Positions 3,377 through 41,489 of a stretch of DNA of 64,000 nt are shown piece by piece. This DNA comes from Escherichia phage ECBP2: sequence record NC_018859.1. One strand, 5' to 3'. Position 1 is the first letter of the stretch; every line of letters starts with the position of its first letter. The position numbers were made by a program, and so were the translations under genes. A model generated the notes under the pieces. It ran no database searches. It was given only the letters and a program-made list of their open reading frames with translations, and was not told where the DNA came from.

Positions 3377-6300
3377 ATGGCTCTCTATCCGATTAAATCA
3401 TTAGGCGCAGTTGGGGTTATCGCTGACCAAGCACCTACTGACTTAGCACCAAATGCTTTCACTAACGCTATTAATGCTCGGTTTGTTGAGCAGAGAGTCT
3501 TTAAGACGGGGGGTAATGCCCCTCTTTCTTATGTAGACGAAGATAAAGATCTGACTCCTCTCTCGTTCCTTTCAATGCCTTTCGATTATTATAGCGCAGG
3601 TACTAGCTTCCTTGTGGTAGGTACAGATAAGAAACTGTATAAACTTACCGATGAAAGTTTAACTGATATCAGCCGTAAGGTTGCTACAGCTACGAAGAAA
3701 GCATCAGCGACAATTAAGATTTATCCAGTGGTCTCTAGTATTTCCCCTAAAGAGACTTCTGTATCCATGAACTTTAACCAGACCAAGATTCTTGAAGTTG
3801 AAGTTAAACCAGTAGATGCACAGAATGCTAACCTAGTTTGGGAAGTGAGTAACTCTTCTTATGGTAGTATCGAGGTTGACCCTACTGATTCTAAGAAAGC
3901 TACACTGACTTCTAAATCAGTTGAAGGTAATCTAGTTGTTACGGTCAGTACAGCTGACGATTCTATCTCAGCTCAGATTGCAGTTAACATCATCGATGGT
4001 GATTCTGGTATTTATCTGAGTCAAGATACACTGACTATGCGTAAAGGTGGTACTTCTACTCTTACAGCTATCACAGGTAAACCTTCTGTAACTTGGACTT
4101 CTTCTAACCCATCTTTGATTTCGGTTTCTCCTAATGCTAACACTAAGACGGTTGTTCTTACAGCTCTTGGAGAAGGACAGGCAACTATCACCGCTGACAA
4201 TGGGACAAAGACTGCATCTTGTGTAGTAACAGCGATTCCTCAGATTGATAGTATCTCATTAAGCCAGACAGATGTTCAAATGAGTCGTGGTACTCAGTAT
4301 ATCTTGACAGCAACTGTTAGCCCAGCTAATGCTCCTAACCAAGCAATCACTTGGACTTCTTCTAATACCAATATTGCTACAGTAAGTGGTACAGGTACAG
4401 AAGCTACCATCACTGGTTTGCTTGCAGGTTATACGGAGATTACAGCAGTGACAGCAGAGGGAAGTCGTTCAGCAGTTTGTACTGTTCGAGTTGACCTATC
4501 CTCTCGTTTGGCAAGTAGGGCTATGTCAGCAATGGCTATCACTACAGAAGCTCCTGTAGAAGAACCGGTTGTTGAGTCAGAAGAAGTTACTTATTTTGAC
4601 ACTGATACAATTGGTATTGATACGTCAGGGATGTCAGAAGGGAATAACTTCTACGACTACTCCAACGTTATGGACTTGGAAGGATTTGGTAGAGCAGCAA
4701 TGCTTGCTAATGATCCTCCTCTCACTGGAGTTACTCTTGATGTTATTGATGCTTCTCTTGATGTAGGTGAAGAAATTGTTATCACAGCTACAGCATCTCC
4801 TACTGGAAGTTACACTTACAAGTGGACGGTTGATAAGAGTGGTTATGTTTCTACTACCTCTACAACTAACCCTACTTTGAAACTTACTGCTATTCGTAAG
4901 GGTGAGATTAAGGTGACTTGTACTGTAAGCCAGATGGTCCAGAAAGACTATGATGCGTTTGAAGATTATCCTTGGTATCATGCGATCATCTCTAACTGTG
5001 CAGTAGCAACTACTCACTACGAAACTCCTCAGGTTAAGGAATTCGATTCTGAATACTTCACTGATCTTCCGGGATGGGGTGAACAGACAGTTGTTGATGC
5101 AGATGGCAACCCTTCTGTTAAGAAGTATAACTGGAAGTGTGAACGAGTAAGGGCTTTTAATAATAGGTTGTTTGCTCTGAATATGAGAGAGTCTAACGCT
5201 TCTGGTGTTACTACTCATTATCCTCTTCGTTTACGTTGGTCTAACTTTGCAGAGGAAAACAAGGCTCCTGAGCTTTGGGATGATTATGCATACGACCGAG
5301 CAGTAACTTCTGACCTAGCAGCTAACATCGTAGGACAGACAGAAGCTCTTGAGAATGGTTACGCAGGGTATATTGACTTGGCTGACTCTAACGGTAGTTT
5401 GTTAGATGTTCTTCCTCTGAAAGATTACCTGTTCGTGTATACTGAGTTTGAAACCTACATTGGTTCTCCTACTAACAACACCTATCAGCCTTTGATGTTT
5501 AAGAAGCTGTTTAACGATTCAGGTATCCTTGCTCCTGAATGTGTGGTGGAAGTTGAGGGTGGTCACTTTGTAGTAACTCAGAACGACGTCATTCTACATA
5601 ATGGTGCTTCTAAGAAATCTATTGCTTCTAACCGAGTGAAGAACATGCTCATTAATGAGATTTGTCTGGTGAACCCAATTGCTACACGAGTTCATCTTCA
5701 TCAGGATAAGAAAGAAGTGTGGGTTCTTTATGTAGGTCCGGGTGAACCTAAAGAAAGTTTTGCTTGTACTAAGGCAGCTGTATGGAACTACGAGTTTGAT
5801 ACTTGGTCTTTCCGTACGATTCCTTACTCTTACTGTATCGGTCTGGTTGATCCTCCTGTTCTGGAACGTGGTCCTATCTGGGCTGATTTCCAAGAGATCA
5901 CTTGGGATGACCCTTCGATTGACAAACTGGTGTGGAGAAAAGATGCAACTAACTTCCGTCAGCGAGTTACAATCATAGGTTCTTTCTTGAAAGGATTTTA
6001 CCAAGTTGATATAGGAGCTTTGGATTATATCTATGACAGAACAAATGATGTGGTTATAGAGAAGCCTCTGGAAATGAGACTAGAGAGAACGGGGATTGAT
6101 TTTGATAACGTCACTAATGAATGGAATCAGAAACACATTAACCGATTTAGACCTCAAGTAACAGGAACAGGGACTTATACTTTTGAAGCAGGTGGTAGTC
6201 AATTCTCTAATGAGTATGGACACAACCACTCTACTAAAGAGTTTAGGGTTGGTGTAGATCGTCACGTAGCAGTCAGACTGAACCATCCATACCTATTCTA

Positions 6301-19785: not shown

Positions 19786-20377
19786 AGAGATCTCTCCGTG
19801 TCTGTGCAATACTGTACTCTAAATACTCCACTGCCTCTTCTACAGAACCATCATTAAAGAGAAGATAGGTTGAAAGGTTCGTGCCTTCAATATAGGAACG
19901 AGAGTCTCCTTCAAAAGTACATCCATCCCGATAAATCTGAATTACTCGAACATCGAAATGCTTTTCCAGTTCTTCAACTTCTGCTTTGAATCCACCATCA
20001 GAGAAAACGATAACATCGTTCTGTCCTAGCAGTTGTTGTTGTTGAATGCTGCTAACAGCAAGTTTACCCATGCAGGTATCCCCAAACATTGGCTTCAGAT
20101 AGTTCTCACTAGTTGAAATCATCAAATCTCGAACTGACTTACCGCCCCATTCAGGACGGTTATGTTCTTTCCACTCACGGTCGTTGTACAGCTCCATGAA
20201 CTCATGAAGAGGGAGACCTAATGCAGCAGCAGCCACTCGATACATAGGCTCCTTAAAAGCCTTTACATGAGGTCTAAACTCATCGTTACCGAGTGTCTTC
20301 TCTAACCAAGAATTAGCGATTGTATCTTTACCACAACCCGGTGGTCCATTCAGAATTACTACTAATGGTTTACTCAT
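19778..20377 (-). CDS. P-loop nucleotide kinase (dNMP kinase-like)
   Basis: Walker A VVILNGPPGCGKDT resembles the N-terminus of phage dNMP kinases. Confidence 0.5.
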   Translation of the reverse strand: MSKPLVVILNGPPGCGKDTIANSWLEKTLGNDEFRPHVKAFKEPMYRVAAAALGLPLHEFMELYNDREWKEHNRPEWGGKSVRDLMISTSENYLKPMFGDTCMGKLAVSSIQQQQLLGQNDVIVFSDGGFKAEVEELEKHFDVRVIQIYRDGCTFEGDSRSYIEGTNLSTYLLFNDGSVEEAVEYLEYSIAQTRRDLYA

Positions 20378-21027
20378 TATTGAATCATCCCTTGAAGATC
20401 TTCTTTATCAAAGTGCTTCTCTACTACCGCTTCATACAGATCACGATTCTCTGCATAACGGCGATAGAAAGTTCCGTGTGAAATTCCCAGCTCCTGCTGG
20501 ATGTGATCATGAGGTATTCCAAGGAAGAGCATAGAGAACATGCTTGCCATTTTCTTGGTATCCATAATATCACTTAAGTCTTGGAAGAAGAAAAAGATTC
20601 TAGATTCCAAGAATGGGTCTCCAGTAGAGTCATGCTTATCCATCGCAATCTCTAAAGGACTTTCCCACGAGTTCATCTCAGGAGGTCTAAACATATCAGC
20701 CTCTGGAATAGAGTAGATACGTCGGTCTCCAACTGTCTGACGGTTAGAACGAATTGACCAGATGATATTCTTAACACGATAAGTCATGTGCTCAATATCT
20801 TTTTCATCAGTGAGCAGAAGTTCTTCTTGCTTTGCAAACACAAAACGCCAAGCGTTCAGTAACACTTCCTGAGCAACATCCTCTGCTTCGTGATAATCTT
20901 TAATGTCATACATAAAATACTTATGCACAACTTTCCAGTTCTCCCGATAGAATTCATCGAAGGTTGGATAATACTTAATAGGAATGCCATGAATACGATA
21001 GCGTGTAGGTGTTGTCTTTTTCTTCAT
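20377..21027 (-). CDS. phage-encoded sigma factor-like protein
   Basis: [15 protein letters not shown] resembles sigma region 2; C-terminal [17 protein letters not shown] resembles a region-4 helix-turn-helix. Confidence 0.5.
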
Positions 21028-31414: not shown

Positions 31415-31645
31415 TTAGATAACCTTGTGCTTATAGATGTTAGGGTTGAAGTAGTGCAACCAGTTTATATATTGTTTCTGTTCGAGGTAGTGCCTGCAAT
31501 CATGACAAAAAGCATGACCCAAACCTGTTTCCTCATTCAGTTTGAAATTGATAAGAAGCTTCTGCTTTCGACAGAAGCTACATGCTTTAGTGGGCTTCAC
31601 GTAATGCATCCCAAGAGATTGGATATATTTTACGAAGCTCTTCAT
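31415..31645 (-). CDS. Cys/His-rich (zinc-finger-like) small protein
   Basis: CSFCRK...CHDCRH; start chosen at an internal Met to limit overlap with ThyX. Confidence 0.35.
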   Translation of the reverse strand: MKSFVKYIQSLGMHYVKPTKACSFCRKQKLLINFKLNEETGLGHAFCHDCRHYLEQKQYINWLHYFNPNIYKHKVI

Positions 31646-32237
31646 CAATTGTTGATGCGAACACTCGTACTTCGTACTGAGCATGGTCTGACAGTCGCTG
31701 ACGACACAACTCTGACCAACCGTATAGAGAACCAGTCCATACCCACTCAGTGATCATACCCTGAGGTAATACGAATCGAGCTTGTTCTGGAGCAATGAAC
31801 TTAATCAATTCATCGTACGACTCAAGAGCTGTTTCATATGCTCGGTTAATCAGAACTAGTGCAGAGTTTTGTGCTCCTGTGGTGAGGAGATTCCCTGCAC
31901 CTGCATGGAGGTCCGAAGGTCTTTCAAAAATCTCTTTAGGGATGAAGAGTTCAACTGCTCCATCTTTATACCGCCGGGACATTTCGTTCCACGAGAATCC
32001 AACTTGGTGTTTATTGAGTTGTCTAGCAATTGCAATGGGAGCCTTACACCGAAAGGTGATTTGAGGGTGTCGAAAAGGAGTCACATGACGTTCCCGAGCT
32101 AAGAATTTAATCAACCGCTCGTCACGTTCGTTCAGATCACCATCTCGTGTCACACCAAAGGAAACCCTTGCTGCATTGACCACAGATTTGTCGGAACCCA
32201 TGTGCTCTACCAGTGTTGCTTTTAAAAAATCAGACAT
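31587..32237 (-). CDS. thyX: flavin-dependent thymidylate synthase
   Basis: RHVTPFRHPQITFRCKAPIAIARQLNKHQVGFSWNEMSRRY matches the ThyX RHR...S...SxRY signature. Confidence 0.8.
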   Translation of the reverse strand: MSDFLKATLVEHMGSDKSVVNAARVSFGVTRDGDLNERDERLIKFLARERHVTPFRHPQITFRCKAPIAIARQLNKHQVGFSWNEMSRRYKDGAVELFIPKEIFERPSDLHAGAGNLLTTGAQNSALVLINRAYETALESYDELIKFIAPEQARFVLPQGMITEWVWTGSLYGWSELCRQRLSDHAQYEVRVFASTIDEELRKIYPISWDALREAH

Positions 32238-32697
32238 ACTTCAACTTCTCCTTGTTGTAAATTTCTTCTGCCTCTTCGCAAGAAGCAAAAGTTCCTAAAT
32301 GTATATTCTTACCTTTGACGCCGATAATGGCTCGATATTTATCACCAGAAGCTGTCTTACGAAGATACACACCTCTAGGAAGATTTCCTATCTTGTTATC
32401 AACATCGTACTGCCTTCTGTTATGACAGTTAGTAGATGGATTCACATCTCTTAGGTTATCAATTGAGTCATTAAGTTTGTTCTGGTCAATGTGGTCAATT
32501 TCAAACTCAGGGAATTTTCCATGAACAAAGAACCAAGCAAGACGGCAAGCTCTGTAGCTTTTCCCTTCATGCTCAATGTAACGATAACCTAGAGAAGATA
32601 CATACCCAGCTTGATTTCCTTTAACCCTTCGACCTTTTGTGTTCTTCCAGAAGAAGTCTCCAGTCTTAGGGTTGTATTCCAAGTCGTCTTGTATCAT
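32230..32697 (-). CDS. HNH homing endonuclease with AP2-type DNA-binding domain
   Basis: EIDHIDQNKLNDSIDNLRDVNPSTNCHNRR (HNH) plus RGVYLRKTASGDKYRAIIGVKGKNIHLGTFASCEEAEEIY (AP2-like). Confidence 0.7.
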   Translation of the reverse strand: MIQDDLEYNPKTGDFFWKNTKGRRVKGNQAGYVSSLGYRYIEHEGKSYRACRLAWFFVHGKFPEFEIDHIDQNKLNDSIDNLRDVNPSTNCHNRRQYDVDNKIGNLPRGVYLRKTASGDKYRAIIGVKGKNIHLGTFASCEEAEEIYNKEKLKYV

Positions 32698-32704
32698 TTC
32701 TTAC

Positions 32705-32920
32705 TTAATAGTGAATCTTTTTATAAATCAGGTTGCTTCCACTTTCTGTTTCAATCCCTTTCTGGATTGTAACTTTAGAAGCACCGGTATTAGCAATTTT
32801 TAAAGCTCGCTTAAACCGGCGAGCCTCTTTCCGTGTGGAGTATGTTGAGAAGCTAGGGATTGTGCTATCAAAATTAAACCACTTAACTACCCAAAAAGTA
32901 ATCCAAGGTTTCTTTTCCAT
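32705..32920 (-). CDS. small basic protein, family with 34785-35000 and 35000-35212
   Basis: Shared W..V..W......TRxEARxxKK core (STRKEARRFKR). Confidence 0.4.
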   Translation of the reverse strand: MEKKPWITFWVVKWFNFDSTIPSFSTYSTRKEARRFKRALKIANTGASKVTIQKGIETESGSNLIYKKIHY

Positions 32921-32921
32921 A

Positions 32922-33197
32922 TTAAATACCTTTCAGAGCCGTGTCTAAAAATGCACGGAGATTAGATTCAGTTTGCATACCTGATAAACTATAATGAGCA
33001 CCACTATTCTTATCAGGGACGACAAAGGCTGGGATACTGCGAACACCGTATTCAATGGCTCGCTCTCGACCATTACCTTCAGAGATATTTACTTCTTCAA
33101 CTTCTACACTGTAGTCAGCCACAACCTTCTTAAACACAGGAGCCATAGCTGCACATGGAGCACATGAATTACTATAAAACTTAATTACTTTACTCAT
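32922..33197 (-). CDS. thioredoxin/glutaredoxin-like protein
   Basis: MSKVIKFYSNSCAPCAAM with CxxC motif and thioredoxin-like length; start at internal Met 33197. Confidence 0.65.
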   Translation of the reverse strand: MSKVIKFYSNSCAPCAAMAPVFKKVVADYSVEVEEVNISEGNGRERAIEYGVRSIPAFVVPDKNSGAHYSLSGMQTESNLRAFLDTALKGI

Positions 33198-33387
33198 TCT
33201 ATTCCTTGTTAATAAACAGGTTGATATGACGCTGGGTAGCAGGAACAACAATAAAAGATTTATACTGACCTTTTGCTAAGTCATGAGCAATCTTCTTTGT
33301 CTGACCAAGACCCATCACACAGCCACTAACGATAATGGCATGTGCTTGTAATTCTTCAGGTAGGTTTAGTTTCACTCTTTAGATTCC

Positions 33388-33573
33388 TTATAGCATACAA
33401 AGAATAATAACAAGAGGTAGTGTTATAGCAAAATGTACCAGAACAACACTACCTAGCTTGATAGCTTTAACATCCTCTTCTGCTGGGTTTTCTTTAATTG
33501 CTAAATTTCGAGCTTTATATATAACAGTACCAACTATTAACGACCACACGGCCCACACAATCAGTGAAATCAT
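33388..33573 (-). CDS. small two-TM membrane protein (paralog pair)
   Basis: Two hydrophobic segments around an ENP motif (AIKENPAEEDVKAIKLGSVVLV). Confidence 0.45.
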   Translation of the reverse strand: MISLIVWAVWSLIVGTVIYKARNLAIKENPAEEDVKAIKLGSVVLVHFAITLPLVIILCML

Positions 33574-33582
33574 ATCAAACCC

Positions 33583-33804
33583 TTATGCAGTCAACAGGTG
33601 GAGAAGGAAAGGAATGACAACAGAGAAAATTACCAGAGCAATGCTGCCATGTTTAATGGGTTTAGCATCATTCGGATTTTCTTTAAGCATCTGTTTCTGA
33701 GCCAGATAAACGATACCACCAACAAGAATTGCCCACACAGACCATACGATTGCTGAAAACATATTCACATCCTTATAAAGAAGTTCGCCCCACCTCTTAA
33801 ACAA
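33583..33804 (-). CDS. small two-TM membrane protein (paralog pair)
   Basis: MLKENPNDAKPIKHGSIALVIF aligns with the adjacent gene. Confidence 0.45.
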   Translation of the reverse strand: MFKRWGELLYKDVNMFSAIVWSVWAILVGGIVYLAQKQMLKENPNDAKPIKHGSIALVIFSVVIPFLLHLLTA

Positions 33805-33825
33805 AGAGACAGGGCGGAGGTTTGA

Positions 33826-34392
33826 TTAGTAAGACACGTCACCACTAGAGTGGGACATGTTGCTCTTGACGAAGTAACAGAACTTGCCAAGACCTTCATT
33901 AATTTCTTGAAGCATACTCTGGTCTACTGGATAGGTGCACAAGTCTGAATCAAACTCGTCCATCTTTTCAATGATACACATCAGAGTCATGCACATGTCG
34001 GAAAGCATACCGTCCATGTCGAGATCAGCACTACCTTCTCTGAACCAAGCACAACTAAGATAGCTACTAGCTGTTGCATCCACTTTGATACAGTGATAAC
34101 GCATTCGCTCAGCTACTCGGTCTCCTGTTTCACGAGCATAGTCTTCTAATTCATCGAACATACCATGAACACCTTGGAAACCAGCTCCAGAGACGTTCCA
34201 GTGGTAATTCTTTGCTTTGATGTGTAGAAGCTCAAGGTTAGCCTGCACACCGCATAGGATGTGCTCTAGACTGTTACCGCTGATCAGTTTATTCATTCCC
34301 TCAAGACGAGAGATAGAGGAGTCAGTTGTAGAGAATGGGTTACTAGAACCCACTCGTGTTAGTTCAGGTAAGTCGAAGACATTATTATGCAT
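33826..34392 (-). CDS. Dps/ferritin-like protein
   Basis: KNYHWNVSGAGFQGVHGMFDELEDYARETGDRVAERM matches the Dps ferroxidase-site signature. Confidence 0.7.
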   Translation of the reverse strand: MHNNVFDLPELTRVGSSNPFSTTDSSISRLEGMNKLISGNSLEHILCGVQANLELLHIKAKNYHWNVSGAGFQGVHGMFDELEDYARETGDRVAERMRYHCIKVDATASSYLSCAWFREGSADLDMDGMLSDMCMTLMCIIEKMDEFDSDLCTYPVDQSMLQEINEGLGKFCYFVKSNMSHSSGDVSY

Positions 34393-34714
34393 TAGGAGTC
34401 TCTCCTTCTAAGTTGGTTGAATTGGCTACGTTACGAGCAATGTTGTCCATGACCTGCTGGGTAATAACAATGCAATTCTGTGGGTCTACAGACTTAGAAC
34501 GCCCCATTTCAGGGTCATAAACCTTAACACGTTTGGCTGTTGAGCCAGTAACTTGCAACACTTTGAGAAGATAACCTTGATTTCCAATAGACCATGCAAC
34601 AACATCACGATTCTTGATATAACGACCAAGCATATCACGATGATAGAACTGCTGCATAACTTTAGCTTTGCTAATCTCTTCAGATGGCGGGGCCACTTTA
34701 CTCAAATCTAACAT
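34385..34714 (-). CDS. hypothetical protein
   Basis: Track ORF 34385-34732; second ATG (34714) has an AGGAGAGAG RBS; an AATGTATATA motif lies just upstream. Confidence 0.45.
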   Translation of the reverse strand: MLDLSKVAPPSEEISKAKVMQQFYHRDMLGRYIKNRDVVAWSIGNQGYLLKVLQVTGSTAKRVKVYDPEMGRSKSVDPQNCIVITQQVMDNIARNVANSTNLEGETPNA

Positions 34715-34748: not shown

Positions 34749-34759
34749 GTATATACATT
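34749..34759 (-). promoter_or_regulatory. AAATGTATATA promoter-like motif (- strand)
   Basis: Ten of eleven positions match the TAATGTATATA motif; sits in the 50-nt gap between genes. Confidence 0.4.
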
Positions 34760-34784
34760 TGAGAGTTATCATATCTACTACCAA

Positions 34785-35000
34785 CTAGTAATAAACCTTG
34801 CTGGATATGAATCCAGCACTGTTCTGGATATTTTCAATCCAACGATGAATCTCCACCTTTTCAGCGATTCCTAAAGCTTTTGTAGCTTTTATAGTTTTCT
34901 TAGCAAGACGAGCCTCTTGTCTTGTGTTGAATAATTGAATACAATCACCACCAAGAGCTTTGTTAGCCCATTTAGTACGAACTGCCCATAATTTATCCAT
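34785..35000 (-). CDS. small basic protein, family member
   Basis: NTRQEARLAKK; 71 aa. Confidence 0.4.
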   Translation of the reverse strand: MDKLWAVRTKWANKALGGDCIQLFNTRQEARLAKKTIKATKALGIAEKVEIHRWIENIQNSAGFISSKVYY

Positions 35001-35212
35001 TAGTAATGTACCTTTCCGCTGATATAGAAACGACCTGATTTAAAGTCTTGAGCTTTGTGGATAGTGATCTTATTAATTGTGCTTTCACAACTTAACAAGA
35101 ACTTCTTATGAGCGCGAGCTTCTTGACGGGTATTCCTAATACCCATTGACTCTGTACCACTGCTCCAGTGAATACGAACTACCCAACGTCTTTTCATTGT
35201 TCCAAACTCCAT
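35000..35212 (-). CDS. small basic protein, family member
   Basis: NTRQEARAHKK; 70 aa, adjacent to its paralog. Confidence 0.4.
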   Translation of the reverse strand: MEFGTMKRRWVVRIHWSSGTESMGIRNTRQEARAHKKFLLSCESTINKITIHKAQDFKSGRFYISGKVHY

Positions 35213-35408: not shown

Positions 35409-35942
35409 TTATACACCTTTAGATGCAACTACACCTTCAGAGTTATTATAACGACCCTTCACTGCATAGGAGTGTTCCCCTGCATGAGAGTGCTCAAACA
35501 TCACCATCTGACCAACACGCATACCAGCACGAACTCGTAAGCTGTGGTTGTGAGTAACGTTATGGAATTCAAAGGTTAGCTTACTGCTATTAAACCCTGC
35601 ATCAGCCCAACCAGCATGAAGGTGGTTCAAACCACAACGAGCCATTGAGGAGCGGAGTACAAACAGGCTTGAGATATTATCTGGAAGGTTAAACTCTTCC
35701 ATCGAGTGAGCTAAGAAGAACTGTCCCGGAGTGATAACGATACCATCTTCAGGGATTTTTACTTCTTTCCACTTGAGGTTTTCTTTAGCATCAATGTCAA
35801 CAATGCCGTCAGCCTGTTCTTCAACAAGGATAGTATCACCAATACGGATATCCACGCTAGCAGCGTTAACATATTTATGCTCCGCATCTAAAAAGCCATT
35901 ATCAATAACGCTGTGTAATTCTTGAGAACCTAAAAGACTCAT
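35409..35942 (-). CDS. dcd: dCTP deaminase
   Basis: ASVDIRIGDT...ITPGQFFLAHSMEEFNLP...GWADAGFNSSKLTFEF resembles the dCTP deaminase/dUTPase fold. Confidence 0.75.
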   Translation of the reverse strand: MSLLGSQELHSVIDNGFLDAEHKYVNAASVDIRIGDTILVEEQADGIVDIDAKENLKWKEVKIPEDGIVITPGQFFLAHSMEEFNLPDNISSLFVLRSSMARCGLNHLHAGWADAGFNSSKLTFEFHNVTHNHSLRVRAGMRVGQMVMFEHSHAGEHSYAVKGRYNNSEGVVASKGV

Positions 35943-37387
35943 GAGTTTCTATTTCCTTGTACAGATGATGCCAAATTGTTAATCATGTTGCGAGCTGTTT
36001 CACGAGATAGTGTAACACCTGCTAAGTTGTTATGAAGCTCACCAGATAGTTCACGAGCAGCAGCTCGAAGTTCTGCACCAAGTGCAGTGTCAGAGTGAGC
36101 CAGACCGTTACGACGACCGACAGGTCGAGGAGTATTGTTAGCATCATTAGCTAAAGATGGAAAATCAATACGAGCAGCTTCACGAGCCGCTATCGCTGCT
36201 ACTCGATCTTCCGTAGGGGTTGGCAAATCACCAACTTCTACACGTTCTATATCACCAGCACATAGACCCTGAACAACTGAGCTTACTGTTTCCCATGAAC
36301 GATGAGAACGCTGTAAATCACCCATTGACGGAGAAGGAATAGGACGAGCAGTTCCCCCTTGAACATGCCATGTACGGTTGTGGGTGTCCGTCCCAGAAGA
36401 ACGTGCACTACCAAAACTACCATTAAAAGTATTACGAGGGTCCATTGTAGAAGGGGCTGCGAATCTTGGGACTTCCTGTTGCCAAGAGTCACGTCTGTTG
36501 GTTCCCGGAGTCCAAGGTTGTGTGATTGCTTCAGCACCGATAGTGGTTAATCCACTAGACCATTCTGTCTGTAGGTTAACTTCCTCGTCCAGATAACTAC
36601 GACCCCTTTCCTGAGGAATGTTTAATATAGTTTCCATCATCTTCAGGGTATAATGACGACGCTGATTCTGATATAAATTTACACCAGCCATAGGTCCAAC
36701 TAAATCACTAATCAGGTGAACTTCTGGCTCACCGAAAGCTCCCATTGCAAGGTGCATATATTCGGTAGAACTGCTATAAACTGCAACAGTTGCTTCAGGC
36801 CACTTCTTGTGAACGTACTTCATTTCACGACTAGATACCACAGGAATGTCACGAGTGTATGACATTGCAAACAAACCTTCGTTTGACACATACAGATTAC
36901 CAAGAGTCATAAACCCTTGACAGATCATAGGGAAGCGACGGCTTAAAGTATCCATATCCAAAGGTAGATTAATCATCATCTGGATTTTAACTTGATCAAT
37001 CTCAATTTCCAGAATCTCTTGGAAAGTGAAAAGCGCTTCAGCATAGGTTGTCCCGTTAACAGGCTGAATTAGTCGAGATGTAACTTGAAGCCCCTTACTC
37101 TCTGTCCAAGACAAGAAGTTGTCAAGGAACAGTGCAGCATTACTTACGTTAGCAGGGCTGTTTTCCTGACGAGTGTTCCAACGGAATCCCCCTTGAACTA
37201 GGAAGATATCAACATCATTCGGAGTTCGATTTTGGAAGAACGTATCACGGATAGCACCACCTGCAATGACAGGATAGATACCATCAGGGACTACGTTATC
37301 TCTGATCAAATTACGAATTAGGTCAAGCCCTACACTGAGGGCTTCTCCTTCTTGAAGGTTCAATTCAGACAATGGAATCTTAATCAT
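35939..37387 (-). CDS. Pol-beta-superfamily nucleotidyltransferase (CCA-adding/poly(A)-polymerase-like head) with long C-terminal extension
   Basis: YPVIAGGAIRDTFFQNRTPNDVDIFLVQ matches the GG[AV]xRD...DxD head motif of class II tRNA nucleotidyltransferases; 482 aa. Confidence 0.5.
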   Translation of the reverse strand: MIKIPLSELNLQEGEALSVGLDLIRNLIRDNVVPDGIYPVIAGGAIRDTFFQNRTPNDVDIFLVQGGFRWNTRQENSPANVSNAALFLDNFLSWTESKGLQVTSRLIQPVNGTTYAEALFTFQEILEIEIDQVKIQMMINLPLDMDTLSRRFPMICQGFMTLGNLYVSNEGLFAMSYTRDIPVVSSREMKYVHKKWPEATVAVYSSSTEYMHLAMGAFGEPEVHLISDLVGPMAGVNLYQNQRRHYTLKMMETILNIPQERGRSYLDEEVNLQTEWSSGLTTIGAEAITQPWTPGTNRRDSWQQEVPRFAAPSTMDPRNTFNGSFGSARSSGTDTHNRTWHVQGGTARPIPSPSMGDLQRSHRSWETVSSVVQGLCAGDIERVEVGDLPTPTEDRVAAIAAREAARIDFPSLANDANNTPRPVGRRNGLAHSDTALGAELRAAARELSGELHNNLAGVTLSRETARNMINNLASSVQGNRNS

Positions 37388-41064: not shown

Positions 41065-41250
41065 TTATTCTACTTCGAAGTGTTTGATCACACCAGTCAA
41101 CACATCAGATTGGAATGTACCTACCAACTCCACTCCTCGGAAGAAGTTAACACTTGTTCCAAGCGATTCAAAACGCTCTGCTTGAATATCTAGAGATTGA
41201 ATATTACCTTCTGAGTTTACTGTACGAAACATGATTGTGTATTTATTCAC
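41065..41250 (-). CDS. hypothetical protein
   Basis: 61-aa ORF. Confidence 0.35.
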   Translation of the reverse strand: MNKYTIMFRTVNSEGNIQSLDIQAERFESLGTSVNFFRGVELVGTFQSDVLTGVIKHFEVE

Positions 41251-41489
41251 AGAGTTGTTACTCCCTTATCTTCTTGTGCAATTGCGATGATACGCTCAAC
41301 ACATTCCATTGAATATTTATCACCTCGTTTAAGGAAGGTGACAATTGCAGAGAACTGATTACCAATCATTCTCTTGTTTGTGATTCCAAACTCTTCACAG
41401 AGTTGGTTAATAGCTTTACGAGAACCAACAATCAGAGGTTCTTTTTGTTCGGTCATTCCACGACTGATCAAATCTTCGATAGACAACAT
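41247..41489 (-). CDS. hypothetical protein
   Basis: 80-aa ORF, ATGA overlap. Confidence 0.4.
   Translation of the reverse strand: MLSIEDLISRGMTEQKEPLIVGSRKAINQLCEEFGITNKRMIGNQFSAIVTFLKRGDKYSMECVERIIAIAQEDKGVTTL

What the first reader, a model, noticed from the sequence alone, without database searches (positions are those of the whole stretch)
33826..34392. Phage-encoded Dps/ferritin-like protein
The ORF carries the Dps ferroxidase-site signature (KNYHWNVSGAGFQGVHGMFDELEDYARETGDRVAERM). Dps proteins are host stress proteins that sequester iron and coat DNA, and I am not aware of them being usual phage cargo. Here it sits among nucleotide-metabolism genes (thioredoxin, ThyX, dCTP deaminase).
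Basis: partly seen in the sequence, partly recalled or inferred. Interest (0 to 1): 0.6.

Follow-up and report, generated by a model that had tools for sequence, protein, structure and literature searches.

The report
Phage Dps mini-ferritin, already annotated
This gene of a phiEco32-like E. coli phage really does encode a Dps-type iron-oxidising mini-ferritin with an intact active site, but it has been annotated as a Dps-family gene in this phage group since 2008, so what remains open is its untested role, not its existence.

Summary
Window 33826-34392 (minus strand) encodes a 188-aa protein that is a genuine Dps-family member. It passes the Pfam Ferritin threshold, its family profile matches solved Dps proteins over the full length (E 7e-19), and its AlphaFold model superposes on Dps subunits (rmsd 1.2-2.2 A). 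All ferroxidase ligands (H64, H76, D80, D91, E95) and Trp65 are invariant in 87 phage-type homologues.

It is not new. The window is a phiEco32-like (Kuravirus-type) podophage, and the protein is 100% identical to those of phages Bas88 and TH34. phiEco32 gene 67 was deposited as 'member of the Dps family', and the SU10 (2014) and Privateer (2021) papers discuss it. Its function has never been tested.

Details added here:
- The gene is the second cistron of an insulated unit (hairpin, phage-sigma promoter, gp68-like gene, Dps, hairpin).
- It is translationally coupled to a more conserved small beta-barrel protein in 9 of the 11 lineages examined.
- The Kuravirus form has a 40-aa non-basic N-terminal extension, so the 'DNA-binding' label is unsupported.
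- Its three-fold pore lacks the usual Asp.

Most likely role: iron and peroxide detoxification during phage DNA replication. Interest is low to moderate.

The parts
33826..34392 (-). Dps-family mini-ferritin gene (188 aa, 21.1 kDa, pI 4.7); orthologue of phiEco32 gene 67 and SU10 CDS67
   Evidence: ORF and RBS; Pfam, PHROG and PDB matches; AF2 model with core pLDDT above 90; Foldseek top hits are all Dps; 82% identical to phiEco32 and 100% to Bas88 and TH34
34102..34212 (-). Ferroxidase-centre segment (aa 61-97, end of helix A to helix B) holding H64, W65, H76, D80, D91 and E95
   Evidence: These map onto E. coli Dps H51/W52/H63/D67/D78/E82 (reference sequence verified). They are invariant in alignment A1 and in 87/87 phage-type sequences
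34270..34392 (-). Lineage-specific N-terminal extension (aa 1-41), predicted disordered apart from a short helix at 26-37. It has conserved N(V/I/P)FDLP and S-x-x-R-L-(E/D)-x-M motifs and a net charge of -1
   Evidence: pLDDT below 56. It stays in frame against phiEco32 with 12 synonymous-only and 16 non-synonymous codon differences. SU10 proteomics lists the 21.2 kDa product
34385..34714 (-). gp68-like partner gene (109 aa, phrog_10984, function unknown). Its 3' end overlaps the Dps start by 8 nt. Predicted small five-stranded beta-barrel with flanking helices
   Evidence: PHROG hit. Homologues lie directly upstream of the Dps gene, with stop/start overlap, in Privateer, LAh_8 and six metagenomic phage contigs. 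AF2 pLDDT is 66.5. The fold search gave only generic Tudor/SH3/KOW-like matches, none significant
34752..34760 (-). AAATGTATA, a promoter element of the phage sigma factor (phiEco32 gp36-type, consensus tAATGTAtA) driving gp68 and Dps
   Evidence: The sequence block is identical to the region upstream of phiEco32 gene 68. Gene 68 is listed among the six genes with experimentally mapped gp36-dependent promoters in PMC8948821. The 9-mer is not enriched window-wide, so this call rests on positional identity only
34799..34818 (-). Terminator-like hairpin upstream of the promoter, closing the preceding transcription unit
   Evidence: 8-bp stem followed by a T-rich tail
33786..33816 (-). Terminator-like hairpin 10 nt downstream of the Dps stop codon (13-bp stem, 7 GC pairs, T-rich tail)
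   Evidence: RNA fold gives -18.6 kcal/mol, z = -4.2, with 0 of 200 shuffles folding as well. The stems are conserved in phiEco32 while the loop differs
32922..33251 (-). Context: phage thioredoxin (the true start is probably internal, giving the 91-aa product annotated in relatives)
31587..32237 (-). Context: flavin-dependent thymidylate synthase ThyX
35409..35942 (-). Context: dCTP deaminase
20377..21027 (-). Context: phage RNA polymerase sigma factor (gp36-like), presumed to read the promoter at 34752-34760
   Evidence: phrog_1740, E 9e-45
41250..41489 (-). Context: homologue of phiEco32 gp79, the inhibitor of host sigma-70 transcription
   Evidence: tblastn, 80% identity, E 1e-41; the function is described in PMC8948821

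Best explanation
SHOWN: the gene encodes a bona fide Dps-family mini-ferritin subunit, a four-helix bundle with a BC helix and a complete ferroxidase centre. It is a core gene of the replication and nucleotide-metabolism ('middle') module of phiEco32-like prolate podophages. It sits in a compact two-gene unit (phage-sigma promoter, gp68-like gene, Dps) bracketed by hairpins. INFERRED: because the Dps ferroxidase site is built from two subunits (His/His from one, Asp/Glu from its two-fold partner), keeping both halves implies at least the Dps dimer, and most likely the usual 12-subunit cage. When the phage sigma factor turns the unit on during genome replication, the cage would oxidise free Fe2+ with H2O2 or O2 and store it as a ferric core. 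That would suppress Fenton chemistry and protect replicating phage DNA and redox-sensitive nucleotide enzymes: ThyX and thioredoxin here, and anaerobic RNR in relatives. This would matter most in a cell whose own OxyR-type response (host dps, catalase) can no longer be induced, because gp79 shuts off sigma-70 transcription. In this lineage the protein probably does not coat DNA by itself. The coupled small beta-barrel partner is likely a stoichiometric co-factor of unknown role. My confidence is about 0.97 in the identity and about 0.5 in the physiological role. The figure given below is for the whole statement.
For: Identity: profile E 6.6e-19 over the full length; helices 42-66, 72-99, 108-113, 126-146, 155-178; all top hits are Dps, TM up to 0.91 on the target, rmsd 1.2-2.2 A. 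Active site under selection: ligands invariant in 21 sequences down to 40% identity and in 87/87 phage-type sequences. Core codons show 50 synonymous-only against 16 non-synonymous differences from phiEco32. Expression: SU10 orthologue detected with 6 peptides and 35.8% coverage. Timing: the promoter block is identical to the mapped gp36-dependent promoter of phiEco32 gene 68, and the sigma factor and a gp79 homologue are present in the window. Context: conserved linkage with dCTP deaminase, thioredoxin and ThyX, and with NrdD/NrdG in relatives, across Kuravirus, Grimontviridae, Lahexavirus and six metagenomic lineages. Physiological plausibility: host dps, catalase and peroxiredoxin are among the most strongly induced host genes early in a lytic enterobacterial infection (YerA41, PMC7354516). 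The same oxidative-stress rationale has been proposed for Dps genes of gut and Lactobacillus phages.
Against: No phage Dps has been tested experimentally in any paper I could find. The position matching Listeria Asp130, the narrowest point of the iron-entry pore, is Ser here and Asn or Ser in 87/87 phage-type sequences, and the pore region has fewer acidic residues (2.4 against 3.9 on average). Iron uptake may therefore be slower or take another route. Salmonella phage 7-11 keeps the gene although it has no gp79 and does not shut off host transcription, so the 'replace a blocked host response' argument cannot be general. The scores fall below the NCBIfam Dps equivalog cut-offs. Oligomeric state was not tested.
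Confidence: 0.55

Rival explanations
1. DNA-coating or condensing protein, as the database label 'DNA-binding protein' implies. The cage would bind phage DNA (or the host nucleoid) non-specifically and shield it from nucleases and radicals, as E. coli Dps does in stationary phase.
For: This is the family's name-giving activity. The short-tailed relatives (Privateer, 7-11, Cronobacter and Aeromonas phages) carry basic N-tails of net +2 to +5, like E. coli Dps at +3. The Privateer protein co-purifies with DNA-filled virions. The coupled partner gp68 is a small beta-barrel with net positive charge (by my count from its sequence) and could supply nucleic-acid binding.
Against: The window protein has pI 4.71 and net charge -14. 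Its 41-residue N-tail is net -1 and its C-tail has no Lys or Arg. None of the 29 long-tailed clade members has an N-tail of +2 or more. From established knowledge, all three known Dps DNA-binding modes need positive charge: a Lys-rich N-tail, a basic C-tail or a basic surface. Among the best-matching solved relatives is B. anthracis Dlp-2, which to my knowledge does not bind DNA.
Confidence: 0.15
2. Virion-associated cargo. The Dps cage would be packaged in, or attached to, the prolate capsid and carried between hosts, for example to protect packaged DNA or to deliver iron or antioxidant capacity. This would be analogous to ferritin-like cargo in HK97-fold encapsulins.
For: The Privateer orthologue was detected by MS in particles purified by CsCl step plus equilibrium gradients. 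The viral structure library contains Dps-fold domains inside proteins annotated 'Prohead protease' and other long phage proteins. Dps fused to the portable phage module DUF6321, and tandem-Dps proteins, also exist.
Against: The gene lies in the middle (replication) module, not the late structural module. The SU10 detection came from a PEG precipitate that also contained DNA polymerase, the sigma factor and other non-structural proteins. The SU10 cryo-EM and MS study of major virion bands lists gp20-24 as internal proteins and never mentions Dps. A large, dense, possibly iron-loaded cage could simply co-purify in CsCl (inference). I could not verify the fusion proteins.
Confidence: 0.1
3. Iron store that feeds phage iron enzymes rather than an antioxidant. 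The cage would bank iron and release it to phage-encoded Fe or Fe-S enzymes such as the NrdG activase.
For: The Dps gene lies within a few genes of NrdD and/or NrdG in Aeromonas LAh_8 and several metagenomic relatives, and next to an NrdD-like fragment gene in Privateer.
Against: tblastn finds no NrdD or NrdG in the 64-kb window, yet the Dps gene is retained. A 12-mer Dps core holds only a few hundred iron atoms, and a lytic cycle is short (established knowledge plus inference).
Confidence: 0.08
4. Mis-annotated or decaying gene: an 'integrase', as many GenBank records label it, or a non-functional remnant of a captured host dps.
For: Many deposited relatives call it 'integrase' or 'hypothetical protein'.
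Against: Ferritin is the only Pfam family hit, with no integrase family. The gene is present at 80% or more coverage in 96 phage records. The ligands are invariant and synonymous changes dominate in the core. The protein is detected by MS. It shares only about 20% identity with E. coli Dps, so it is not a recent capture from the host.
Confidence: 0.01

Closest known systems
phiEco32 gene 67 product (ABY52868, 'DNA-binding protein, member of the Dps family') and SU10 CDS67
   Same: This is the orthologous gene: 82% identity, the same length, the same position after gene 68 and before the thioredoxin/ThyX block, and the same promoter block upstream of gene 68. Bas88 and TH34 encode a 100% identical protein.
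   Different: Nothing of substance. The N-terminal 40 residues are the most divergent part.
Cellular Dps mini-ferritins: B. anthracis Dlp-2 (1jig), M. smegmatis Dps2 (2z90, 4m35), L. innocua Dps (1qgh), E. coli Dps (1dps, 1f30)
   Same: The fold matches, including the BC helix. His-His-Asp / Asp-Glu ferroxidase ligands and the neighbouring Trp are in identical register, and the profile match covers the full length.
   Different: Identity is only 20-25%, and the scores fall below the NCBIfam equivalog cut-offs. There is a 40-aa non-basic N-terminal extension. The residue matching Listeria Asp130 in the pore is Ser/Asn, and the one matching Asp126 is Pro. The protein has 7 Cys and 12 Met, against a mean of 0.9 Cys in other Dps. 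It is expressed from a phage-sigma promoter together with a dedicated partner gene.
Dps of the short-genome-distance relatives (Proteus phage Privateer, Salmonella 7-11, Cronobacter GAP52/A24, Aeromonas LAh phages)
   Same: They belong to the same phage-specific Dps clade at 31-42% identity, in the same replication and nucleotide module, usually with the same gp68-like gene directly upstream.
   Different: They are 146-156 aa long, with short basic N-tails (net +2 to +5) in place of the long neutral or acidic extension. They are often next to anaerobic RNR genes, which the window lacks.
Independently acquired phage Dps genes (Lactobacillus plantarum myoviruses, Streptomyces phages, 'Gratiaviridae' and other gut phages)
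   Same: These are also ferritin-like/Dps genes carried by lytic phages near DNA-metabolism genes, and protection from oxidative stress has been proposed for them.
   Different: They are found with an E. coli Dps query rather than with this protein, and in unrelated phage lineages. I did not check them for a gp68-like partner.

Membership tests
Dps (DNA protection during starvation) mini-ferritin family | Significant sequence-profile match to the ferritin-like/Dps family | tested here: met
   PF00210 scores 31.4 bits against a cut-off of 24.5. The family profile against PDB Dps chains gives E 6.6e-19 over 131-145 residues. 5,179 Dps-like representatives score below E 1e-3.
Dps (DNA protection during starvation) mini-ferritin family | Four-helix bundle with a short BC helix in the long crossover loop | tested here: met
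   The AF2 model has helices A 42-66, B 72-99, BC 108-113, C 126-146 and D 155-178, with core pLDDT above 90. The Foldseek top 50 are all Dps chains, with rmsd 1.2-2.2 A for the best.
Dps (DNA protection during starvation) mini-ferritin family | Inter-subunit ferroxidase centre: two His plus Asp from one subunit, Asp and Glu from the other, and the adjacent Trp (E. coli H51, H63, D67, D78, E82, W52) | tested here: met
   H64, H76, D80, D91, E95 and W65 are in exact register. They are invariant in A1 and in 87/87 clade members.
Dps (DNA protection during starvation) mini-ferritin family | Assembly into a hollow 12-subunit cage with 23 symmetry | not testable with these tools
   Only single-chain prediction was available. 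Retention of both halves of an inter-subunit site implies at least the two-fold dimer (inference).
Dps (DNA protection during starvation) mini-ferritin family | Acidic 'ferritin-like' three-fold pore for iron entry (L. innocua D121, D126, D130) | tested here: not met
   The aligned positions are gap/Pro155/Ser159. The D130 position is Asn or Ser in 87/87 clade members, against Asp in 94/171 and Asn in 42/171 other Dps. This feature is common but not universal in the family, so it marks a variant rather than exclusion. The alignment in this loop is less certain than in the helices.
Dps (DNA protection during starvation) mini-ferritin family | Ferroxidase activity and a ferric mineral core | not testable with these tools
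   Needs biochemistry.
DNA-binding subclass of Dps (E. coli type) | Flexible Lys/Arg-rich N- or C-terminal tail, or a basic surface | tested here: not met
   The N-tail (41 aa) is net -1 with 3 Lys/Arg, the C-tail has none, and the whole protein is net -14 with pI 4.71. The E. coli Dps N-tail is net +3.
NCBIfam Dps equivalogs (NF006975, NF041388, NF052461) | Score above the curated equivalog cut-off | tested here: not met
   34.8, 28 and 17.8 bits against cut-offs of 114, 170 and 300. It is a distinct phage subfamily, not an equivalog of any cellular Dps.
Integrase (the label in many deposited relatives) | Tyrosine or serine recombinase domain | tested here: not met
   Ferritin is the only Pfam hit, and all structural matches are Dps.

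The most novel reading that the evidence does not exclude
The gp68-like small beta-barrel protein and the Dps form a dedicated two-protein phage module. The partner would target or tether the iron cage to the replicating or packaging phage DNA, or into the procapsid. This would make it a virus-carried ferritin compartment, functionally reminiscent of ferritin cargo in encapsulins, rather than a free cytoplasmic antioxidant. Pointers are the stop/start-coupled gene pair kept across lineages in which the Dps itself has diverged to about 30% identity, the partner's much stronger conservation, the Privateer virion signal, and Dps folds fused to prohead-protease-annotated proteins in uncultured phages.
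Probability: 0.12. Interest if true: 0.6.

Novelty: already known. Interest (0 to 1): 0.25.

Why it matters
As an identification it adds nothing new, because this phage group's Dps gene has been in GenBank since 2008. It still marks a real gap. A complete, strongly conserved iron-oxidising cage protein is a core gene of a whole lineage of lytic phages that are candidates for therapy, and nobody has tested what it does. If it buffers iron and peroxide during replication, it would be a clean example of a phage supplying a stress function that its own host shut-off disables. It could also influence phage performance in oxidative or iron-variable settings such as the inflamed gut or urine. There are practical corollaries too. 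The widespread 'integrase' label on this gene is wrong and could cause such phages to be flagged as temperate. The 'DNA-binding protein' label is unsupported for the Kuravirus form.

Tried and rejected
- The original phiEco32 genome and transcription papers (PMC2587145, PMC3275717) are not held. The promoter evidence is therefore second-hand, via PMC8948821.
- The promoter 9-mer with one mismatch or fewer is not enriched window-wide (22 found against 18.9 expected). I rely only on its exact positional identity with phiEco32.
- I considered an alternative internal start at Met33 and rejected it. The upstream ATG has a good AAGGAG RBS. Codons 1-40 stay in frame against phiEco32 with 12 synonymous-only changes and conserved motifs. 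SU10 proteomics lists the 21.2 kDa product.
- The gp68 partner has no Pfam family above threshold and no PADLOC hit. Its fold search returned only generic Tudor/SH3/KOW-like barrels with E above 0.001, on a model of moderate confidence. Its function remains unassigned.
- A defence or anti-defence reading has no PADLOC support for either protein.
- For the Dps fusion proteins I found Ferritin + DUF6321 and a tandem-Dps protein. Their contigs are 1.5-4 kb and the neighbours have no PHROG hit. DUF6321 appears in no paper in the library. The 'Prohead protease' fusions in BFVD could not be retrieved. This lead is unresolved.
- A Cu or thiol-metal site in the Cys/Met-rich helix C (DMCMTLMC) was considered but not pursued. 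None of the seven Cys positions is among the invariant or nearly invariant columns of alignment A1, and the pattern fits ordinary hydrophobic core positions.
- Co-variation of the N-terminal extensions of gp68 and Dps was seen, but it is confounded by phylogeny and may reflect a single event, so I do not use it as evidence.

Full report
**What is there.** Window 33826-34392 holds a 188-codon ATG ORF on the minus strand, with AAGGAG 9 nt upstream of the start and TAA at 33826-33828. The ORFs on the opposite strand are short (42 and 64 aa) and I found nothing to support them. The product weighs 21.1 kDa, has pI 4.71 and net charge -14, and contains 7 Cys and 12 Met.

**Which genome.** The region is 94-96% identical in DNA to Escherichia phages Bas87, IME267, HC-25922 and Bas88. 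The protein is 100% identical in Bas88 and TH34 and 82% identical in phiEco32. The window is therefore a phiEco32-like (Kuravirus-type) prolate podophage of E. coli. 96 phage records carry the gene at 80% coverage or more. Their labels disagree: 'DNA-binding protein', 'integrase', 'ferric iron binding protein' and 'hypothetical protein'.

**Is it a Dps?** Yes.
- Alone, the sequence passes the Pfam Ferritin threshold (31.4 against 24.5 bits), but only over helices A and B. It matches PHROG 3636 over the full length (E 5e-53) and M. smegmatis Dps2 at E 1e-9.
- It falls far below the NCBIfam Dps equivalog cut-offs.
- A profile of 21 homologues reaching down to 40% identity (alignment A1) matches solved Dps proteins over all four helices, for example B. 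anthracis Dlp-2 at E 6.6e-19.
- An AlphaFold2 model built on A1 has a core pLDDT above 90 and helices at 42-66, 72-99, 108-113, 126-146 and 155-178, which is the Dps topology including the BC helix.
- The Foldseek top 50 PDB matches are all Dps chains, with TM up to 0.91 on the target and rmsd 1.2-2.2 A for the best.

**Active site.** I used an E. coli Dps sequence that I verified as identical to PDB 1f30. On that numbering the ligands H51, H63, D67, D78 and E82 and Trp52 correspond exactly to H64, H76, D80, D91, E95 and W65. These residues are invariant in A1 and in 87 of 87 phage-type sequences. Against phiEco32, the core codons show 50 synonymous-only and 16 non-synonymous differences. The site is therefore under purifying selection. 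In Dps this site is formed between two subunits (established knowledge), so at least the two-fold dimer must be retained. The 12-mer itself could not be tested here.

**Where it departs from textbook Dps.**
1. Pore. I used a Listeria innocua Dps sequence verified against 1qgh. The three pore aspartates D121, D126 and D130 align to a gap, Pro155 and Ser159. The D130 position is Asn or Ser in all 87 clade members, whereas it is Asp in 94 and Asn in 42 of the 171 other Dps sequences. The pore region also has fewer acidic residues, 2.4 against 3.9 on average.
2. Tails. The window protein has a 41-residue N-terminal extension that is predicted to be disordered. It stays in frame but evolves quickly, and it has conserved NVFDLP and SxxRLExM motifs. 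Its net charge is -1, and the C-tail has no Lys or Arg. None of the 29 long-tailed clade members has an N-tail of +2 or more. By contrast, 59% of the short-tailed relatives do (Privateer +3, 7-11 +3, BUCT695 +5), like E. coli Dps at +3. The 'DNA-binding' label is therefore name transfer. It is unsupported for this lineage but plausible for the Grimontviridae-type proteins.
3. Cysteine. Long-tailed clade members average 6.4 Cys against 0.9 in other Dps. None of the seven Cys positions is among the invariant or nearly invariant columns of A1.

**Locus anatomy.** On the minus strand the order is as follows.
- A terminator-like hairpin lies at 34818-34799.
- AAATGTATA lies at 34760-34752. This block is identical to the one upstream of phiEco32 gene 68. 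PMC8948821 lists gene 68 among the six genes with experimentally mapped promoters that depend on the phage sigma factor gp36, consensus tAATGTAtA.
- A 109-aa gp68-like gene lies at 34714-34385.
- The Dps gene follows, its ATG overlapping the end of gp68 by 8 nt.
- A 13-bp-stem hairpin with a T-rich tail lies at 33816-33786. It folds at -18.6 kcal/mol with z = -4.2, and its stems are conserved in phiEco32 while the loop differs.

The window also encodes the sigma factor at 20377-21027 and an 80%-identical homologue of gp79, the inhibitor of host sigma-70 transcription, at 41250-41489. The Dps gene thus appears to be the second cistron of an insulated, phage-sigma-driven middle unit. This agrees with its assignment to the middle genes in SU10.

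**A conserved partner.** Homologues of gp68 (hmmsearch E from 1e-17 to 1e-70) lie immediately upstream of the Dps gene. The stop and start codons overlap as TAATG in Privateer, Aeromonas LAh_8 and metagenomic contigs L006-L008. Contigs L011, L012 and L014 have the Kuravirus-style overlap of 8-11 nt. Salmonella 7-11 has the homologue five genes away. One short contig, L013, lacks it. The partner is much better conserved than the Dps: about 85% identity where the Dps is at 51-57%. It has no Pfam or PADLOC family. Its model has moderate confidence (pLDDT 66.5) and shows a small five-stranded beta-barrel between helices, with only generic, non-significant Tudor/SH3/KOW-like matches. The SU10 paper had noted that CDS67 and CDS68 are both conserved in all five C3 phages. 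I did not find the coupling and its breadth described anywhere.

**Wider context.** In every lineage examined except the short contig L013, the gene sits in the replication and nucleotide module with some or all of dCTP deaminase, thioredoxin and ThyX. In the larger relatives it also sits with NrdD and NrdG. The window has no NrdD or NrdG. An exhaustive profile search shows a small, distinct phage clade of 7 representative clusters below E 1e-30, followed by a continuum of about 5,000 ordinary Dps proteins. The clade's named members are phages, and many of the unnamed ones lie on phage-sized contigs. Dps genes of other origins occur in about 95 Streptomyces phages, 16 Lactobacillus phages and some Clostridium phages, and also in gut phages. 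Each of my two tblastn queries matched about 130 of 50,697 phage records, so the gene is uncommon but recurrent.

**What the literature says.**
- The phiEco32 record already reads 'DNA-binding protein; member of the Dps family'.
- SU10 (PMC4281155) calls CDS67 a DPS-domain protein conserved in all C3 phages and detects it by MS. That sample was only PEG-precipitated and contained many non-structural proteins, so this is evidence of expression only.
- Privateer (PMC7881722) detected its Dps in particles purified by CsCl step plus equilibrium gradients and states that its function is unverified.
- The SU10 cryo-EM and MS study of major virion proteins does not mention it.
- I found no experimental study of any phage Dps.
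- In a lytic infection of Yersinia ruckeri, host dps, catalase and peroxiredoxin are among the most strongly induced host genes (PMC7354516). This shows that infected enterobacteria mount this response when they are able to.

**Interpretation.** The best-supported reading is a phage-made iron and peroxide detoxifying cage. It would be produced with a stoichiometric partner during genome replication, protecting phage DNA and redox-sensitive nucleotide enzymes in a cell whose own inducible response is blocked by gp79. The identity is shown. The cage assembly, the chemistry and the physiological role are inferred. Three points count against a simple version of this reading: the non-canonical pore, the retention of the gene in 7-11 (which does not shut off host transcription), and the lack of any experiment. 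The rivals are DNA coating (disfavoured here by charge), virion cargo (one CsCl dataset plus unverified Dps-prohead protease fusions in BFVD) and iron supply to Fe-S enzymes (no such enzymes found in this window).

**Verdict.** The residual interest lies in the untested function and in the coupled partner.

Noticed in passing
window 34385-34714 (-); also L003 4639-4923, L005 4609-4962 (start probably near 4684), L006 3681-4001, L007 3720-4001, L008 3732-4001, L011 2179-2511, L012 2179-2508, L014 2179-2508: A small protein of unknown function (phiEco32 gp68 family, phrog_10984; predicted small beta-barrel) is translationally coupled to the Dps gene in 9 of 11 lineages examined. It is far more conserved than the Dps: about 85% identity where the Dps is at 51-57%. 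It has no Pfam or PADLOC family and no significant structural match.
   Followed up: partly
GenBank relatives, e.g. IME267 (P0011), vB_EcoP-101114UKE3, MLP3, PAS59, E20-1, XT32, 172-1: Many deposited genomes label this Dps gene 'integrase'. Ferritin is the only Pfam family hit, so nothing supports that label. It could wrongly suggest a temperate lifestyle for phages considered for therapy.
   Followed up: yes
BFVD entries A0A6J7XDU5, A0A6J7WPK9, A0A6J7WIS1; P0061 and P0059; loci L015 and L016: Dps-fold domains occur inside longer proteins of uncultured phages: three annotated 'Prohead protease', one Ferritin + DUF6321 (a C-terminal module shared by many PHROGs of unknown function), and one tandem-Dps protein of 777 aa. 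They may be capsid-targeted Dps domains. The contexts were too short to decide.
   Followed up: partly
window 32230-32697 (-): An HNH endonuclease ORF (PF13392, E 7e-10) lies between ThyX and the thioredoxin block. The close relative Bas88 has no gene of that size there, so it is probably a mobile homing-endonuclease insertion.
   Followed up: no
window 34785-35000, 35000-35212 and 32705-32920 (all -): Three proteins of about 70 aa, of unknown function, are paralogues of one another (32-35% identity, E from 1e-5 to 5e-10). They share a TR(Q/K)EAR...K(V/I)xI...K(V/I)(H/Y)Y pattern. Two of them lie in tandem just upstream of the gp68-Dps unit.
   Followed up: partly
window 33388-33573 and 33583-33804 (both -): Two tandem small hydrophobic proteins both match phrog_9296 (E 2e-30 and 7e-32). 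This looks like a local duplication of a putative membrane protein directly downstream of the Dps terminator-like hairpin. phiEco32 has a single 59-aa gene, phi32_66, at that position.
   Followed up: no
window 33826-34392 (-), residues C47, C101, C114, C134, C139, C152, C172: The Kuravirus-type Dps proteins are unusually rich in cysteine (mean 6.4 against 0.9 in other Dps) and methionine (12 in the window protein, including DMCMTLMC in helix C), and a phage thioredoxin is encoded four genes downstream. None of the Cys positions is invariant across the clade. The significance is unknown.
   Followed up: partly
P0187 and P0194: Two phage-type Dps sequences are attributed to the actinobacterium Herbiconiux daphne, but they sit on contigs of 568 and 752 bp. 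They are probably phage contamination or fragments in that assembly rather than a cellular homologue.
   Followed up: no
window 35939-37387 (-): The 482-aa 'nucleotidyltransferase' (phrog_12715) next to dCTP deaminase has no Pfam family at E <= 0.01. By eye, its C-terminal half is long and compositionally biased, rich in Ser/Thr/Arg/Gly/Ala. It is conserved in relatives but apparently uncharacterised.
   Followed up: no
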